Shown piece after piece: positions 46,566 through 49,292 of a DNA stretch of 64,000 nucleotides. The stretch lies in assembly GCF_055900595.2 (NCBI RefSeq), contig NZ_CM148325.1; one strand, given 5' to 3'. The translations under genes were made by a program, and so were the position numbers. Below the pieces are notes generated by a model. The model was given only the letters and a program-made list of their open reading frames with translations. It had not been told where the DNA came from and did no database searches. Numbering within the stretch: position 1 is the stretch's first letter; every line of letters begins with the position of its first letter.

Positions 46566-46810
46566 TTATGAAGGCCGGATAATTCAATAATTATTCGGCT
46601 TACTCATTTATAAATATGGTAAAAACATCATAACAATATCTATAAATCATAGTTAAAAAAATCACGCTAACTCATTAAAAATATAAGTATTTTCACATTA
46701 TGGGTAAAAATACCATTCTCCTTTTGAGCTTAACAAATACAGACTCTATCCATTCATAACAGATCCGTGCATAATTTCATTTATCGCAGCACAACCAAAA
46801 CACAACACAA

Positions 46811-46925
46811 CCATCACATCACATCACATCACATCACATCACATCACATCACATCACATCACATCACATCACATCACATCGCATCACATCGCATCACATC
46901 ACATCGCATCACATCGCATTACATC
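46811..46925. repeat. pentanucleotide microsatellite (ACATC)n
   Basis: about 23 tandem 5-bp units counted; 13 consecutive perfect ACATC (46816-46880), then alternating ACATC/GCATC variants. Confidence 0.95.
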
Positions 46926-47220
46926 AACTTAACTTAAGTTAATAAATTTAAAACATATAACGCACAAAATTGGTCGTCTGATCTTTAGCGGAAAAAATCA
47001 TGACTGTAAAGTCATCATGTATTAACTACTTTTCCAGATATCACACCATTAAAAAAAATAAAAAAAATCAATTAGTTATAAAATTTTCAAACATAACACA
47101 TAACATTAATCTGATGCTCTCCAAAAAAATTAAGCAGTGCAGGGTGACAACCCCATAGCAGTACGCTACCTTACTGAAAAATTACTTAATACGATACTGA
47201 AAGTTAGAAGGAGCCACACC

Positions 47221-47391
47221 ATGAGGAAAAAGAAAGGGTTAAACCGAGTTATTTGCTTGTTTTTGATAACAATTTTATCACATTTAGTGTCTGATGATGA
47301 TATCCTATTATTTCAGTTAGAGGATCTGTCAAAAGCAAATACCTCTATGGGTATTCATCTTTCCGTTGATTTCAAACATGAGACCAAATGA
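47221..47391 (+). CDS. hypothetical small protein (56 aa) with N-terminal basic + hydrophobic segment
   Basis: ATG 47221 after aggag RBS; MRKKKGLNRVICLFLITILSHLV...; stop overlaps next ATG (ATGA). Confidence 0.4.
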   Translation: MRKKKGLNRVICLFLITILSHLVSDDDILLFQLEDLSKANTSMGIHLSVDFKHETK

Positions 47392-47969
47392 TTATGAAAA
47401 ATCTATCAGAGATAGCATATGTTTTTGGTGGACACTCATTTCGTACCAAAGCTGAAGCTGCAACAGGTTGCATCAAACTTATTCAGATAAAAGATATACA
47501 GGCAGGCATATTTGGTGATTTCTCGTCACTTCCTTTTGCAGATCTTTCAGAAGAAAAACTAAAATTCAACCTAAAAACAAATGATATTCTTTTACCTTTA
47601 AGAGGCGAAAGGATAGCAGCAATGATGATAGATAACGAAAATAATGTTGCAGTTACTACAACGAATCAAATTGCCATTATAAGAATTAATAGCAATTTGA
47701 TCACTCCAGAGTATTTGTTATATTTTCTAAATGCACCGAAAGGTATTAATCTGATAAATGAACTACAAGGTAACGGATTGGTTACAAACCTTAGCATAAA
47801 AAAACTTACAACATTAACATTACCGATTCCATCATTGGATATTCAATATGAAGTTATTAACCTTCATAACATGTGGACAAAACAAAAAGAGACCTTATGT
47901 AGTTTAATAGAAAATGGTTCTGCATTGTGTCATGCAACAATCAATAAGTTAATCTACAAAGGAGAGTAA
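47388..47969 (+). CDS. HsdS-like specificity protein with a single target-recognition domain (half-S)
   Basis: 193 aa; TRD-like core plus C-terminal conserved-helix motif LPIPSLDIQYEVINLHNMW; very AT-rich. Confidence 0.65.
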   Translation: MIMKNLSEIAYVFGGHSFRTKAEAATGCIKLIQIKDIQAGIFGDFSSLPFADLSEEKLKFNLKTNDILLPLRGERIAAMMIDNENNVAVTTTNQIAIIRINSNLITPEYLLYFLNAPKGINLINELQGNGLVTNLSIKKLTTLTLPIPSLDIQYEVINLHNMWTKQKETLCSLIENGSALCHATINKLIYKGE

Positions 47970-47971
47970 AT

Positions 47972-49231
47972 ATGAAAATACAAGAATTTATAAGCATATT
48001 ACAATCTATCCCCTGCAATTCCCTGGATAAATACCAGAAAATGCTTATTTGTTTTGAAGCTACTGTACTAACTTATTTACATAAGGACTCTGCCAAGAAA
48101 ATTATATCAGTAAGTGAAATGGATATTGAACATATTTACAGACACTCGCCGTCATTAAATAAAAACAAAGTAACATGGGATGAGTTTTCTTATATTTTTT
48201 CAGATATAATCTTTCATATAAAGTCCTCTAACATGGATGTCAATAAATATATATCAAATATATTTCAACACCTTTGTTACGATTATCATCACAAAAAATT
48301 CTCTAAAATAGATATTATTAATATAATCACCTCGAATATTGAGCAACTAAGACCTCTATCTCAAAGGCATCATACTCCTAATGAGTTGGTTGAATTAATG
48401 AGTAAAATAGTCAATATCCAAGATGGTGATATTTTTTATGATCCTGCATGTGGTTCAGGTGAGTTCATTTCTGCAATGTTTAATAAAAATGTCATGATAT
48501 ATGGTACTGAAAGCATCATAGAAAGAGCTAAAATATCAAAATTAAAAATGCTCGCAACCGGAAATAATCCTTTAAATATTACGACGCCATATTTTAACGA
48601 TAATAATCTACCTGAAAAATTTGATATTATTTTATCCAACCCCCCTTTCTCTCTAAAAATACCTGAAAATATGCAAAAAAAAATTTGCATTTATGGAGAA
48701 CCACCTGTTTCAAATGCTGATTTTATATTTTTACAATTCTGCATTTACAAACTAAAAAATAATGGATGCGCTGCTATCATCATGCCGGACAGCATTTTAT
48801 TTAGAAGTGGAAAAGAACAAGAAATACGTAAATCATTTATTGAGAAAGGGCATATTTCCACCATTATTTTTTTACCGAAAGGTATTTTTAAAAACACTTA
48901 TGTACCAACAAGCATTTTGCTACTACGCAAGCAAAATGACTATGACGACATCCTATTCATTGATGCAAGAGATAAAACAACCTTCAACAACGATCTTATA
49001 ATTCATTTATTTACTGAACGTGAAAATAATAAGTTATCGAAGATTGTTACAAAATCAGAAATTGCTGATAATGATTATAACTTGTCAGCAGCATTATATT
49101 TTAAAGAAGAAACAGAAATACCAGAAATAGAACAATTAATAGACAATCAAAAATACCTCAGCAGTAAATTACAGGATTTACATTATGATTTCATTCACAC
49201 TATATCCAGATTATCACCAAAAAATGAATAA
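47972..49231 (+). CDS. gamma-class N6-adenine DNA methyltransferase (HsdM-like, shortened)
   Basis: 419 aa; aaggagag RBS; motif I FYDPACGSGEF, motif IV ILSNPPFSL, motif X-like TPNELVELMSKIV; starts 3 bp after half-S stop. Confidence 0.75.
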   Translation: MKIQEFISILQSIPCNSLDKYQKMLICFEATVLTYLHKDSAKKIISVSEMDIEHIYRHSPSLNKNKVTWDEFSYIFSDIIFHIKSSNMDVNKYISNIFQHLCYDYHHKKFSKIDIINIITSNIEQLRPLSQRHHTPNELVELMSKIVNIQDGDIFYDPACGSGEFISAMFNKNVMIYGTESIIERAKISKLKMLATGNNPLNITTPYFNDNNLPEKFDIILSNPPFSLKIPENMQKKICIYGEPPVSNADFIFLQFCIYKLKNNGCAAIIMPDSILFRSGKEQEIRKSFIEKGHISTIIFLPKGIFKNTYVPTSILLLRKQNDYDDILFIDARDKTTFNNDLIIHLFTERENNKLSKIVTKSEIADNDYNLSAALYFKEETEIPEIEQLIDNQKYLSSKLQDLHYDFIHTISRLSPKNE

Positions 49232-49292
49232 TTTGCTGCAAAACGCCACGCTAAGCTCCCCCCTTCCCTGCACGGGAAGGGGAATTGCCCCC

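What the first reader, a model, noticed from the sequence alone, without database searches (positions are those of the whole stretch)
46566..49292. AT-rich island after hsdR with a coupled small-peptide / half-HsdS / N6A-methyltransferase module and no nuclease
Between hsdR and yjiS (where K-12, as I recall, has symE-mcrBC-yjiTV) sits a strongly AT-rich block. It holds three genes with overlapping or abutting start/stop codons: a 56-aa peptide with a basic-hydrophobic N-terminus (47221..47391), a 193-aa HsdS-like protein with one TRD (47388..47969), and a 419-aa gamma-class N6-adenine MTase (47972..49231) about 120 aa shorter than the canonical HsdM upstream. There is no cognate HsdR or other nuclease in the module. 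It could be an orphan, possibly phase-variable, Type I-like methyltransferase; a second specificity module that borrows the upstream HsdR; or part of an uncharacterised defence or epigenetic system in which the small peptide participates.
Basis: partly seen in the sequence, partly recalled or inferred. Interest (0 to 1): 0.8.

Follow-up and report, generated by a model that had tools for sequence, protein, structure and literature searches.

The report
Ronin-like decoy defence cassette, divergent
The three genes are real and conserved, and they match the layout of "Ronin", a recently described anti-phage system in which a nuclease-less restriction-modification look-alike holds a small membrane toxin in check until a phage anti-restriction protein appears; this copy is a divergent, undescribed branch and carries a conserved DNA palindrome that may explain how the system is controlled.

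Summary
An AT-rich (~30% GC) block between hsdR and yjiS holds a 56-aa ORF, a 193-aa one-TRD HsdS and a 419-aa N6-adenine MTase with coupled start and stop codons and no nuclease.

The trio is an autonomous cassette. It recurs in Escherichia, Citrobacter-, Klebsiella- and Salmonella-type loci, always with a 56-aa ORF, and with or without a neighbouring hsdMSR.

Its architecture equals Ronin (Silas et al. 2023): ronA (61-aa membrane toxin), then half-size hsdS, then hsdM, with no hsdR. Ronin is triggered by Ocr/ArdA. The window's S (32% identity, E 4e-26) and M (29%, E 1e-31) are homologous to Ronin's. The peptide shares size, position and a basic-then-hydrophobic layout, but shows no significant sequence similarity to RonA.

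New here: a palindrome, CAGTA-N8-TACTG (47159-47176), overlaps the cassette promoter. It recurs upstream of the small ORF in distant relatives (Pseudomonas, Microbulbifer, metagenomes). An N6 version lies in the Ronin upstream region shown to be essential. It has the form expected of a binding site for a half-S dimer.

Verdict: a new variant of a known kind. The defence function is inferred, not shown. A (CACAT)n tract upstream is hypervariable, and its role is unknown.

The parts
46801..46926 (.). (CACAT)n pentanucleotide tandem repeat, about 25 units, roughly 230 bp upstream of the cassette promoter. It is hypervariable between strains, and whether it belongs functionally to the cassette is unknown.
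   Evidence: TRF finds period 5 and 25.4 copies. The tract is 66, 66, 101, 101, 121, 136 or 161 bp long in otherwise near-identical Escherichia loci. It is absent from the Citrobacter-, Klebsiella- and Salmonella-type loci.
47144..47149 (+). -35-like hexamer GTGACA of the candidate cassette promoter. The -10 candidates are TACCTT (47167-47172) and TACGAT (47190-47195).
   Evidence: TGACAAC is invariant in the four enterobacterial lineages (alignment A5). The promoter assignment is my inference. The generic scan did not list it.
47159..47176 (.). Palindrome CAGTA-N8-TACTG, the candidate operator or recognition site of the half-S homodimer. It overlaps the core promoter.
   Evidence: It is the only match in the 64-kb window, and 0 of 100 shuffles gave any match. 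It is conserved at -62 to -65 from the peptide ATG in L002, L003, L004 and L073. It recurs, with unrelated spacers, in Pseudomonas L070 (x2), Microbulbifer L068 and the metagenome loci L076 and L077 (x2 each, as the variant CAGWA-N8-TWCTG). An AGTA-N6-TACT version occurs in ECOR55-type Ronin (x2), L080 and L082.
47206..47213 (+). Strong Shine-Dalgarno sequence (AGAAGGAG) for the 56-aa ORF.
   Evidence: Sequence. AAGGGGA/AGAAGGAG is conserved 7-8 nt before the ATG in all lineages.
47221..47391 (+). 56-aa small protein with a basic N-terminus (MRKKKG), a hydrophobic helix (residues ~7-23) and a polar tail ending in LSVDFKHETK. It is the candidate RonA-like membrane toxin/effector.
   Evidence: It is exactly 56 aa in every lineage, with 30-41% identity. 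dN/dS is 0.23-0.48. KD-19 hydropathy maximum is 1.7-2.1. AF2 predicts a helix at 7-20. Among 1.84 billion representatives only 3 clusters match, all 56 aa. It sits in the same position as ronA in Ronin.
47388..47969 (+). Half-size HsdS (193 aa): one TRD plus one C-terminal dimerisation helix. Its start overlaps the peptide stop, so it is translationally coupled.
   Evidence: Pfam Methylase_S. 62-67% identical across enterobacterial lineages. 32% identical to Ronin HsdS, E 4e-26. The closest solved structure is the half-S homodimer Esub1, 8VSQ. AF2 pLDDT is above 90, with a long C-terminal helix.
47972..49231 (+). 419-aa gamma-class N6-adenine MTase (HsdM-like) with a short helical N-domain, a catalytic domain and a C-terminal helix. 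It has its own SD (AGGAGAG, 47960-47966).
   Evidence: Pfam N6_Mtase 8.5e-52, with no HsdM_N. Motifs DPACGSG and NPPF are conserved. 29% identical to Ronin HsdM, E 1e-31. The best fold matches are type I MTases: PacII M1M2S, S. thermophilus HsdM and EcoR124I.
48640..48645 (+). C6 tract inside the NPPF codons of M. It is a frameshift site in one strain.
   Evidence: L019 has C5 here, which splits M into 227 + 186 aa.
48675..48683 (+). A9 tract in M. It is a frameshift site in one lineage.
   Evidence: L013 differs from the window in 2.2 kb only by A10 here, giving M fragments of 249 + 149 aa. The 149-aa fragment is recorded on 16 contigs.
39004..46565 (+). Neighbouring mrr (39004-40170) and complete type I hsdM (40234-41853), hsdS (41810-43207) and hsdR (43290-46565). 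This is the restriction system that the cassette is proposed to back up. It is not part of the cassette.
   Evidence: The neighbouring hsdS varies between strains (436-460 aa) while the trio stays constant. Ronin is reported as linked to a type I/type IV composite RM system or to BREX.

Best explanation
The trio is a divergent member of the Ronin kind of decoy, abortive-infection system. The half-size HsdS dimerises and recruits two copies of the short HsdM, giving a type-I-like M2S2 complex without a nuclease. This complex mimics the target of phage and plasmid anti-restriction proteins (the DNA mimics Ocr and ArdA). The 56-aa protein encoded just upstream is the effector: a small inner-membrane protein whose action arrests or kills the cell. 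In uninfected cells the M2S2 complex keeps the effector silent. When a DNA mimic binds the complex, control is lost and the cell dies or stops growing before the phage completes its cycle. This backs up the adjacent Mrr/type I restriction system. My added, inferred step is that control is at least partly transcriptional. The M2S2 complex would sit on the palindrome CAGTA-N8-TACTG that overlaps the cassette's own promoter. A DNA mimic would compete it off, derepress the operon and give a burst of the first, efficiently translated gene, the peptide. Shown here: the anatomy; conservation of all three genes; homology of S and M to Ronin's; the conserved palindrome. Taken from the literature for the homologous system: RonA toxicity, suppression by HsdMS, triggering by Ocr/ArdA/Aop1, dispensability of methylation, and the need for the upstream region. 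Inferred: that this family behaves the same way, that the peptide is the toxin, and that the palindrome is the S-dimer site.
For: The architecture is identical to Ronin. An ECOR55-type Ronin locus, fetched at coordinates the paper lists for E. coli MB15 (L075), reads ronA (61 aa), then a 200-aa half-size S, then a 493-aa M, with no hsdR. S is 32% identical (E 4e-26) and M is 29% identical (E 1e-31) to Ronin's. One coherent family of half-size S proteins with a conserved TRD includes both (A11). The small ORF is under purifying selection, is always 56 codons, carries a strong SD, and has a basic N-terminus followed by a hydrophobic helix like RonA. The cassette is autonomous. It lies before, after or without hsdMSR in different genera, always inside the yjiA-yjiS defence island (island described). 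Distant relatives (24-47% identity) keep the order small basic-hydrophobic ORF, half-S, M, with no nuclease. The TRD is more conserved than M (62-67% against 45-49%). That is the opposite of diversifying type I systems and fits a fixed DNA target. The palindrome lies within about 160 bp upstream of the small ORF in 12 of the 13 loci scanned (all but L069). There are 16 such hits, against 3 background hits in about 204 kb. In Ronin the two N6 copies (-162, -103) lie in the distal 135 bp of the upstream region, which Silas et al. found essential. Linkage to a type I/type IV RM neighbour matches the reported Ronin contexts.
Against: The peptide shows no significant sequence similarity to RonA. 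BLASTP finds nothing, hhalign gives E 0.28-0.34, and the HMM score of the window peptide is no better than 228 of 3000 shuffles. The effector may therefore be analogous rather than homologous, or not a toxin at all. An AF2 model of the fused peptide-S-M chain gave S and M pLDDT above 90 but placed the peptide with low confidence (<40 beyond the helix), so there is no support for a docked complex. PADLOC and NCBIfam give only generic type I hits. M lacks a detectable HsdM_N, which Ronin M has. The enterobacterial family has one palindrome where most relatives have two. Some copies carry frameshifted M. No experiment exists for this family.
Confidence: 0.6

Rival explanations
1. A solitary (orphan) M2S2 adenine methyltransferase with a purely epigenetic or protective role, for example immunising the genome against an incoming RM system of the same specificity. 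The small ORF would be only a translational leader that delivers ribosomes to the poorly initiated S gene. The palindrome would be the enzyme's own site, used for autoregulation.
For: The catalytic motifs are intact and conserved. There is a half-S plus M precedent in M.AhdI, an M2S2 tetramer. The S start has only a weak SD and overlaps the peptide stop, while the peptide has a strong SD. The peptide evolves faster than S and M, and its best-conserved parts are the ends, where initiation signals lie. AF2 shows no docking of the peptide.
Against: A mere leader need not keep exactly 56 codons, a basic-then-hydrophobic N-terminus and pN/pS of 0.40-0.46 in its middle codons across genera. The same kind of small ORF precedes distant relatives. 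In the homologous Ronin system the small protein is the effector and methylation is dispensable. A 10-base site would occur only a few times per genome, which is a poor epigenetic or protective mark (1 site in 64 kb).
Confidence: 0.2
2. A decayed remnant of an AhdI-like type II or type I RM system that lost its nuclease. It would persist by chance in the defence island, with a fortuitous upstream ORF.
For: There is no nuclease in the module. The block is AT-rich and looks foreign. It is rare: 1 of 5426 complete E. coli genomes. Some copies have frameshifted M.
Against: All three ORFs are intact and under purifying selection in four lineages whose synonymous sites are saturated. No relative in any genus has a nuclease inside the operon. 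The non-coding leader is conserved. The many 332-aa M entries are start-choice artefacts, not decay.
Confidence: 0.07
3. A second specificity module that assembles with the neighbouring HsdR and gives the host a second type I restriction specificity.
For: In the window it lies immediately after hsdR, and it also does so in Halopseudomonas L069.
Against: It occurs with no hsdR in the neighbourhood (L004-L007) or upstream of mrr-hsdMSR (L003). M is 27% identical to the neighbouring HsdM in the catalytic core only, with unrelated N- and C-terminal parts. The neighbouring hsdS and type I family vary while the trio stays constant. 77% of Ronin-bearing E. coli lack any hsdR.
Confidence: 0.03
4. A phase-variable methyltransferase (phasevarion) switched by the (CACAT)n tract or by the A9/C6 tracts in M.
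For: The repeat length differs in steps of 5 bp among near-identical strains. A10 and C5 frameshift alleles exist, and the A10 allele is the only difference in 2.2 kb.
Against: The repeat lies about 230 bp upstream of the conserved promoter, outside the region conserved between genera, and other genera lack it. Homopolymer indels can be assembly errors. Only two frameshift alleles were seen among about ten loci. This reading gives the peptide no role.
Confidence: 0.05

Closest known systems
Ronin (ronA-hsdS-hsdM) decoy/abortive-infection system of E. coli ECOR55 (Silas et al., bioRxiv 10.1101/2023.04.06.535777)
   Same: The gene order is the same: a small (~60 aa) basic-then-hydrophobic protein, then a half-size one-TRD HsdS, then HsdM. 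There is no hsdR. It sits next to RM systems in a defence island. S and M are homologous (32% and 29% identity). The upstream non-coding region carries AGTA...TACT palindromes.
   Different: The peptide (56 against 61 aa) has no detectable sequence similarity to RonA. M is 74 aa shorter and lacks a Pfam HsdM_N. The palindrome spacer is N8 against N6, with one copy against two. The peptide stop overlaps the S start here, whereas Ronin has a 16-nt gap. The location is the yjiA-yjiS island rather than the leuX hotspot. There is no DNA-level similarity. The function of this family is untested.
PrrC-EcoprrI (anticodon nuclease kept latent by a type Ic RM complex, released by the T4 Stp peptide)
   Same: The logic is the same: a type I RM-type complex masks a suicide effector and reports phage interference with restriction. 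The Ronin authors cite it as the model.
   Different: Its effector is a large tRNA nuclease embedded in a complete hsdMSR locus. Here the effector is a 56-aa membrane-type peptide and there is no HsdR in the module.
PARIS (AriA/AriB), a sensor of Ocr
   Same: It is triggered by the same class of phage anti-restriction protein and ends in abortive infection.
   Different: Its proteins are unrelated (an ABC ATPase plus a TOPRIM nuclease). It has no methyltransferase or S subunit.
M.AhdI-type methyltransferases (M2S2; half-size S) of type II RM systems
   Same: A half-size S dimer plus two M subunits would be expected to read a symmetric bipartite site. M.AhdI is a 170-kDa M2S2 tetramer.
   Different: AhdI has a cognate restriction endonuclease and a C-protein controller (my own knowledge). 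Here neither is present, and there is a small membrane-type ORF instead.
Esub1 (SpyM3_0890) of Streptococcus pyogenes, PDB 8VSQ/8VSR
   Same: It is the closest solved sequence relative of the window S (E 5e-6). It is a half-S that crystallises as a homodimer with two identical DNA-binding heads, and its authors suggest it acts like a repressor.
   Different: Esub1 is a solitary gene with no adjacent M. Its binding to HsdM was not shown.
Type I toxin-antitoxin membrane peptides (Hok, TisB, Ldr and others)
   Same: They are small, basic-then-hydrophobic inner-membrane peptides that arrest growth (my own knowledge).
   Different: Those are controlled by antisense RNAs. No antisense promoter or Rfam family was found here, and the peptide is co-transcribed with S and M.

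Membership tests
Ronin | An hsdS-hsdM operon with no hsdR in the module | tested here: met
   The same holds in all relatives.
Ronin | A tightly linked gene for a ~60-aa protein with a predicted transmembrane helix, directly upstream of hsdS | tested here: met
   A 56-aa ORF at 47221-47391 overlaps the S start. KD-19 hydropathy is 1.7-2.1 and AF2 predicts a helix at 7-20. The Ronin reference locus has ronA in the same position.
Ronin | The small protein is a homologue of RonA | tested here: not met
   BLASTP finds no alignment and hhalign gives E 0.28-0.34. The window peptide scores no better than shuffles against an HMM of non-enterobacterial small ORFs. There are weak signals for an orthologue (L002, 2/3000) and for RonA against the pooled profile (0/3000), but these may reflect shared layout only.
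Ronin | HsdS and HsdM are homologous to those of ECOR55-type Ronin | tested here: met
   S is 32% identical over 177 aa, E 4e-26. M is 29% identical over 307 aa, E 1e-31. They fall in a common half-S family (A11).
Ronin | [quoted passage not shown] | tested here: inconclusive
   The leader and palindrome are conserved, and related palindromes lie in the Ronin segment reported as essential. Requirement itself cannot be tested in silico.
Ronin | Cell death or growth arrest on expression of Ocr, ArdA or Aop1; the small protein toxic alone and suppressed by HsdMS; methylation dispensable | not testable with these tools
   Reported for ECOR55 Ronin only.
Ronin | Linkage to an RM (type I/type IV composite) or BREX system | tested here: met
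   mrr plus hsdMSR lie directly upstream. The cassette is linked to mrr or hsdMSR in L002, L003 and L072.
Classical type I RM system | An HsdR translocase-nuclease encoded with M and S | tested here: not met
   There is none in the module. The cassette occurs without any hsdR nearby.
Classical type I RM system | A full-length S with two TRDs, and an M with the HsdM_N domain | tested here: not met
   S has one TRD in 193 aa. M has no HsdM_N hit, although AF2 gives it a helical N-domain.
AhdI-like type II RM (M2S2 methyltransferase + REase + C protein) | An adjacent restriction endonuclease and a controller protein | tested here: not met
   No further ORF with nuclease or HTH features lies between 46566 and 49292.
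Phase-variable methyltransferase (phasevarion) | A simple-sequence repeat in the ORF or core promoter whose length changes switch expression | tested here: inconclusive
   (CACAT)n varies but lies about 230 bp upstream of the promoter. A9 and C6 frameshift alleles exist in single lineages. Switching was not shown.
Type I toxin-antitoxin | An antisense RNA antitoxin overlapping the toxin mRNA | tested here: inconclusive
   There is no minus-strand promoter-like site near 47100-47400 and no Rfam match. Such scans are weak evidence of absence.

The most novel reading that the evidence does not exclude
Ronin-type systems are switched at the DNA level. The nuclease-less M2S2 complex would be a sequence-specific repressor, bound through its half-S dimer to palindromes (CAGTA-N8-TACTG here, TAGTA-N6-TACTA in ECOR55 Ronin) that flank or overlap the promoter of its own toxin gene. 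DNA-mimic anti-restriction proteins would trigger death by competing the complex off this operator. This would explain three published but unexplained facts: the upstream region is essential, methylation is dispensable, and Ocr mutants without anti-restriction activity still trigger the system. It would also explain why the TRD, which is hypervariable in true type I systems, is conserved across genera here.
Probability: 0.3. Interest if true: 0.75.

Novelty: new variant of a known kind. Interest (0 to 1): 0.6.

Why it matters
It extends Ronin beyond close ronA relatives. The original survey used BLASTN with ronA and so found only those. The broader family of peptide, half-S and M cassettes spans Enterobacteriaceae, Pseudomonas, Microbulbifer and uncultured bacteria. 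Its small proteins are too divergent for homology searches, so current defence finders label these loci as stray type I fragments. It also yields a concrete, testable candidate for the unknown essential function of the Ronin upstream region. In addition it gives a predicted recognition sequence for the S subunit. If confirmed, this would be a clear bacterial case of a decoy that senses a DNA mimic by losing hold of real DNA.

Tried and rejected
1. PADLOC and NCBIfam scans of the three proteins returned only generic type I S and M models and weak MADS hits, far below cut-offs. They returned nothing for the peptide.

2. A profile search with the peptide against 1.84 billion representatives found only its own three clusters. 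A marginal 97-aa hit matched the hydrophobic stretch only.

3. A weak Pfam SEFIR hit in the M N-terminus (E 0.027) was dismissed. AF2 gives an all-helical N-domain, and the fold matches are type I MTases.

4. A fused peptide-linker-S-linker-M AF2 model was built to test docking. The first alignment, A8, was discarded because HsdM N-domains misaligned onto S. The corrected A9 gave confident S and M but an unplaced peptide, which is inconclusive.

5. A scan of viral contigs with the S alignment found nothing, so there is no evidence the cassette is phage-borne.

6. A scan of 100,044 species genomes with the M alignment found one full-length relative, in Citrobacter sedlakii. The remaining hits were generic HsdM cores.

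7. Decay of M was suspected from the many 332-aa database entries. It was rejected because the reading frame is intact and the entries are start-choice artefacts.

8. A LexA box was considered, because the half-sites are the pentamers CAGTA and TACTG. It was rejected because order and spacing are the reverse of CTGT-N8-ACAG (my own knowledge).

9. An RNA hairpin reading of the palindrome is disfavoured. The arms are conserved in sequence rather than covarying. The loops are unrelated. In the enterobacterial loci the element overlaps the promoter.

10. Rfam found nothing above noise.

11. Literature searches for half-size S or orphan type I modules in the immigration control region found no description of this cassette.

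
Full report
**Observation**

The block between the stop of hsdR (46565) and yjiS (49293-49472, minus strand) has 29-33% GC, against about 50% in the flanks.
- 47221-47391, 56 aa;
- 47388-47969, 193 aa;
- 47972-49231, 419 aa.

The peptide stop overlaps the S start (ATGA), and M starts 2 nt after the S stop. 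Pfam assigns Methylase_S (one TRD) to the 193-aa protein. It assigns N6_Mtase (8.5e-52), with no HsdM_N, to the 419-aa protein. Motif I (DPACGSG) and motif IV (NPPF) are intact.

One is a (CACAT)x25 tandem repeat at 46801-46926. The other is a conserved promoter-like leader at about 47144-47213.

**Is the small ORF real?**

Divergent relatives of M (45-49% identity) were found in four further lineages. By their flanking genes and database names these are Klebsiella-like (L002), Salmonella (L003, L072, L073) and Citrobacter-like (L004-L007; C. sedlakii). Every one has a 56-codon ORF whose stop overlaps or abuts the start of a 191-193-aa S, followed by a 417-424-aa M.

Identities to the window are 30-41% for the peptide, 62-67% for S and 45-49% for M. 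Synonymous sites are saturated (dS at least 1). The peptide nevertheless has dN/dS of 0.23-0.48, and its middle codons have pN/pS of 0.40-0.46 among L002-L004. Both alternative frames are full of stops. The peptide has a strong SD, whereas S has only a weak one and depends on the overlap. The longer 84-aa GTG form would start upstream of the conserved promoter, so 56 aa is the likely product.

A profile of the peptide found only its own three 56-aa clusters among 1.84 billion representatives.

**The cassette is autonomous**

All relatives lie in the enterobacterial immigration control region between yjiA and yjiS/yjiR, a known defence island (review PMC12707154). The trio sits in different places within it:
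- after hsdMSR in the window;
- after hsdMSR and symE in L002;
- before mrr-hsdMSR and after a NERD-UvrD helicase gene in L003 and the Salmonella loci;
- with no hsdMSR at all in L004-L007.

Within Escherichia the neighbouring hsdS changes (436-460 aa) while the trio is nearly invariant. The trio's M is 27% identical to the neighbouring HsdM, in the catalytic core only. This argues against a module that borrows the upstream HsdR.

The island is rare. Only 1 of 5426 complete E. coli genomes (strain MB52) has it, at either megablast or blastn sensitivity. The exact proteins are nonetheless on hundreds of contigs, and the M and S entries carry names from E. coli, E. fergusonii and unclassified Escherichia.

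**What it is**

The literature search led to Ronin (Silas et al., bioRxiv 10.1101/2023.04.06.535777). This is a locus of E. coli ECOR55 with hsdS and hsdM but no hsdR, plus a tightly linked 61-aa transmembrane protein, RonA. The paper reports the following:
- RonA is lethal when over-expressed alone, and HsdMS suppresses this.
- The system kills or arrests the cell when the anti-restriction proteins Ocr, ArdA or Aop1 are present.
- A motif IV mutant (F287G) still works.
- The system is linked either to a type I/type IV composite RM system or to BREX.
- 77% of E. coli that carry it have no hsdR anywhere.

Using the paper's accession table, I fetched an ECOR55-type locus from E. coli MB15 (L075). 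It reads ronA (61 aa), then S of 200 aa (half-size, one TRD), then M of 493 aa, next to tRNA-Leu. This is the same architecture as the window.

The window S is 32% identical to Ronin S (E 4e-26). The window M is 29% identical to Ronin M over the catalytic and C-terminal parts (E 1e-31). A 23-sequence alignment shows one family of 190-210-aa half-S proteins with a conserved TRD (LIQIKDI, LLPLRGxR, TTTNQxAxI) that contains both.

The peptide is a different matter. There is no BLASTP alignment to RonA, and hhalign gives E 0.28-0.34, even profile against profile. What the two share is position, length, a basic N-terminus, a hydrophobic helix containing a Cys, and a polar tail with alternating residues. 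HMM tests against shuffled controls gave weak, mixed signals. RonA against the pooled profile beat all 3000 shuffles, and L002 was beaten by only 2 of 3000. The window peptide was beaten by 228 of 3000. I therefore treat RonA homology as not demonstrated.

Two further differences from Ronin stand out. The window M lacks a detectable HsdM_N, which Ronin M has. There is also no DNA-level similarity between the two systems.

**A broader family**

More distant half-S relatives (28-47% identity) also show S followed by M (457-513 aa) with no nuclease in the operon. They come from Microbulbifer, Halopseudomonas, Pseudomonas and seven metagenome contigs. In each case a roughly 58-70-aa ORF with a basic N-terminus and a hydrophobic stretch lies just upstream, often overlapping the S start. 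The Ronin layout therefore extends well beyond the close ronA homologues that the original BLASTN survey could reach.

**A conserved palindrome**

Aligning the upstream regions of the four enterobacterial lineages revealed an invariant TGACAAC (-35-like). About 10 nt downstream of it lies CAGTACG[C/G]TAnCTTACTG, that is, CAGTA-N8-TACTG. In the window this is 47159-47176. It is the only match in 64 kb, and none of 100 shuffles produced one.

The same bipartite palindrome, with unrelated spacers, lies upstream of the small ORF in several relatives:
- Pseudomonas L070, twice (-103 and -45);
- Microbulbifer L068, at -155, plus an AGTA-N8-TACT at -90;
- metagenome loci L076 and L077, twice each, as CAGAA-N8-TACTG and CAGTA-N8-TTCTG.

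The Ronin branch instead has AGTA-N6-TACT. It occurs twice in ECOR55-type Ronin (-162, -103), twice in L080 and once in L082. Where two copies exist they are 58-66 bp apart and bracket a good -35/-10 pair.

Across about 204 kb of loci there were 3 background matches, against 16 within about 160 bp upstream of the small ORFs. Uniform expectation for the N8 pattern is about 4 per Mb. Halopseudomonas L069 is the one exception without a match.

Three features together have the form expected for the recognition site of a half-S homodimer: arms conserved in sequence, a free spacer, and twofold symmetry. M.AhdI is an M2S2 tetramer. The closest solved relative of the window S, Esub1, is a half-S homodimer with two identical DNA-binding heads. 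From my own knowledge, the symmetric adenines A5 and A5' are 9 positions apart, as in EcoKI. This also makes sense of an odd fact: the TRD-bearing S is more conserved than M, which is the reverse of true type I systems.

In Ronin, both palindromes lie in the distal 135 bp that Silas et al. found indispensable.

**Mechanism proposed**

Most likely (confidence about 0.6) the trio is a Ronin-type decoy. It would be an M2S2 look-alike of a type I methyltransferase that keeps a small membrane effector silent and releases it when a DNA mimic binds. This would back up the adjacent Mrr/type I system.

I add, as inference (about 0.3), that control is exerted on DNA. The complex would occupy the palindrome over its own promoter. 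A DNA mimic would displace it, and the first, well-translated gene, the peptide, would be over-produced.

The AF2 model of a fused peptide-S-M chain gave pLDDT above 90 for S and M and a helix at peptide residues 7-20. The rest of the peptide was below 40. This provides no support for stable sequestration of the peptide by one S and one M, but the test is weak. Fold search places M among type I MTases (PacII, EcoR124I, EcoKI).

**Rivals**

- An orphan M2S2 methyltransferase with a leader ORF and autoregulation (0.2).
- A decayed RM remnant (0.07).
- A phase-variable methyltransferase (0.05).
- A second specificity for the neighbouring HsdR (0.03).

The evidence for and against each is given in the structured fields.

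**Polymorphism**

The (CACAT)n tract is 66 to 161 bp long, in steps of 5, among otherwise near-identical Escherichia loci. It lies outside the leader conserved between genera, and other genera lack it. Its role is open.

Two frameshift alleles of M sit at homopolymers. A9 to A10 at 48675-48683 is the only difference in 2.2 kb of L013, and its 149-aa product is on 16 contigs. C6 to C5 at 48640-48645 lies inside the NPPF codons of L019. A Salmonella copy is frameshifted near the C-terminus of M. These may be real on/off variants or assembly errors. In a Ronin-type system, loss of M should be counter-selected if it unleashes the toxin, which makes these alleles worth checking.

**Verdict**

The window holds a divergent, undescribed branch of it, so I rate it a new variant of a known kind. 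It yields one new and testable lead: the conserved palindromic operator, which is also the predicted recognition sequence.

Noticed in passing
window 46801-46926: The (CACAT)n pentanucleotide repeat (about 25 units) varies from 66 to 161 bp, in steps of 5 bp, among near-identical Escherichia loci. It is absent from the other genera. It lies about 230 bp upstream of the cassette promoter.
   Followed up: partly
window 48675-48683 and 48640-48645: A9 and C6 tracts inside the M gene carry the only frameshift alleles seen. L013 has A10, and its product is on 16 contigs. L019 has C5, inside the NPPF codons. These could be real on/off variants or homopolymer assembly errors.
   Followed up: partly
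L003 5151-6998; L072 272-2113; L073 5547-7388: In the Salmonella-type loci the cassette lies directly downstream of a 613-615-aa NERD + UvrD-helicase gene and upstream of mrr-hsdMSR. This may be another defence gene of the island, or a functional partner.
   Followed up: no
L069 530-9972 (Halopseudomonas nanhaiensis): A related half-S/M pair directly follows a two-methylase (M1-M2-S-R, PacII-like) type I system. HNH-domain genes lie just downstream. This locus is the only relative without the CAGTA/TACTG palindrome; it has TACTGCAGT instead.
   Followed up: no
L077-L079 65-2530: In these metagenome loci the peptide/half-S/M cassette follows an 821-aa helicase-like ORF with a GSGKT motif. It may be a truncated or atypical HsdR.
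   Followed up: no
window 39004-46565 compared with L011-L019: The neighbouring type I hsdS differs in length and sequence between strains (436-460 aa) while the trio is nearly identical. This suggests recombination within the island with the cassette as a stable passenger. brnT/brnA and mrr precede the hsd genes, as described for the type ID-style island.
   Followed up: partly
window 47159-47176: The palindrome arms CAGTA and TACTG are the same pentamers as in the E. coli LexA box, but in the opposite order and spacing. I judged this a coincidence.
   Followed up: partly
window 46572-46601: A terminator-like hairpin lies directly after the hsdR stop. This suggests the cassette is transcribed from its own promoter rather than by read-through from hsdR.
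   Followed up: no
protein clusters P0122, P0124, P0125 (332 aa): Many database entries for this M are 332 aa long. In the one representative locus checked (L074, P0122) the 419-codon frame is intact, so that entry is a start-codon annotation choice rather than a truncation.
   Followed up: yes
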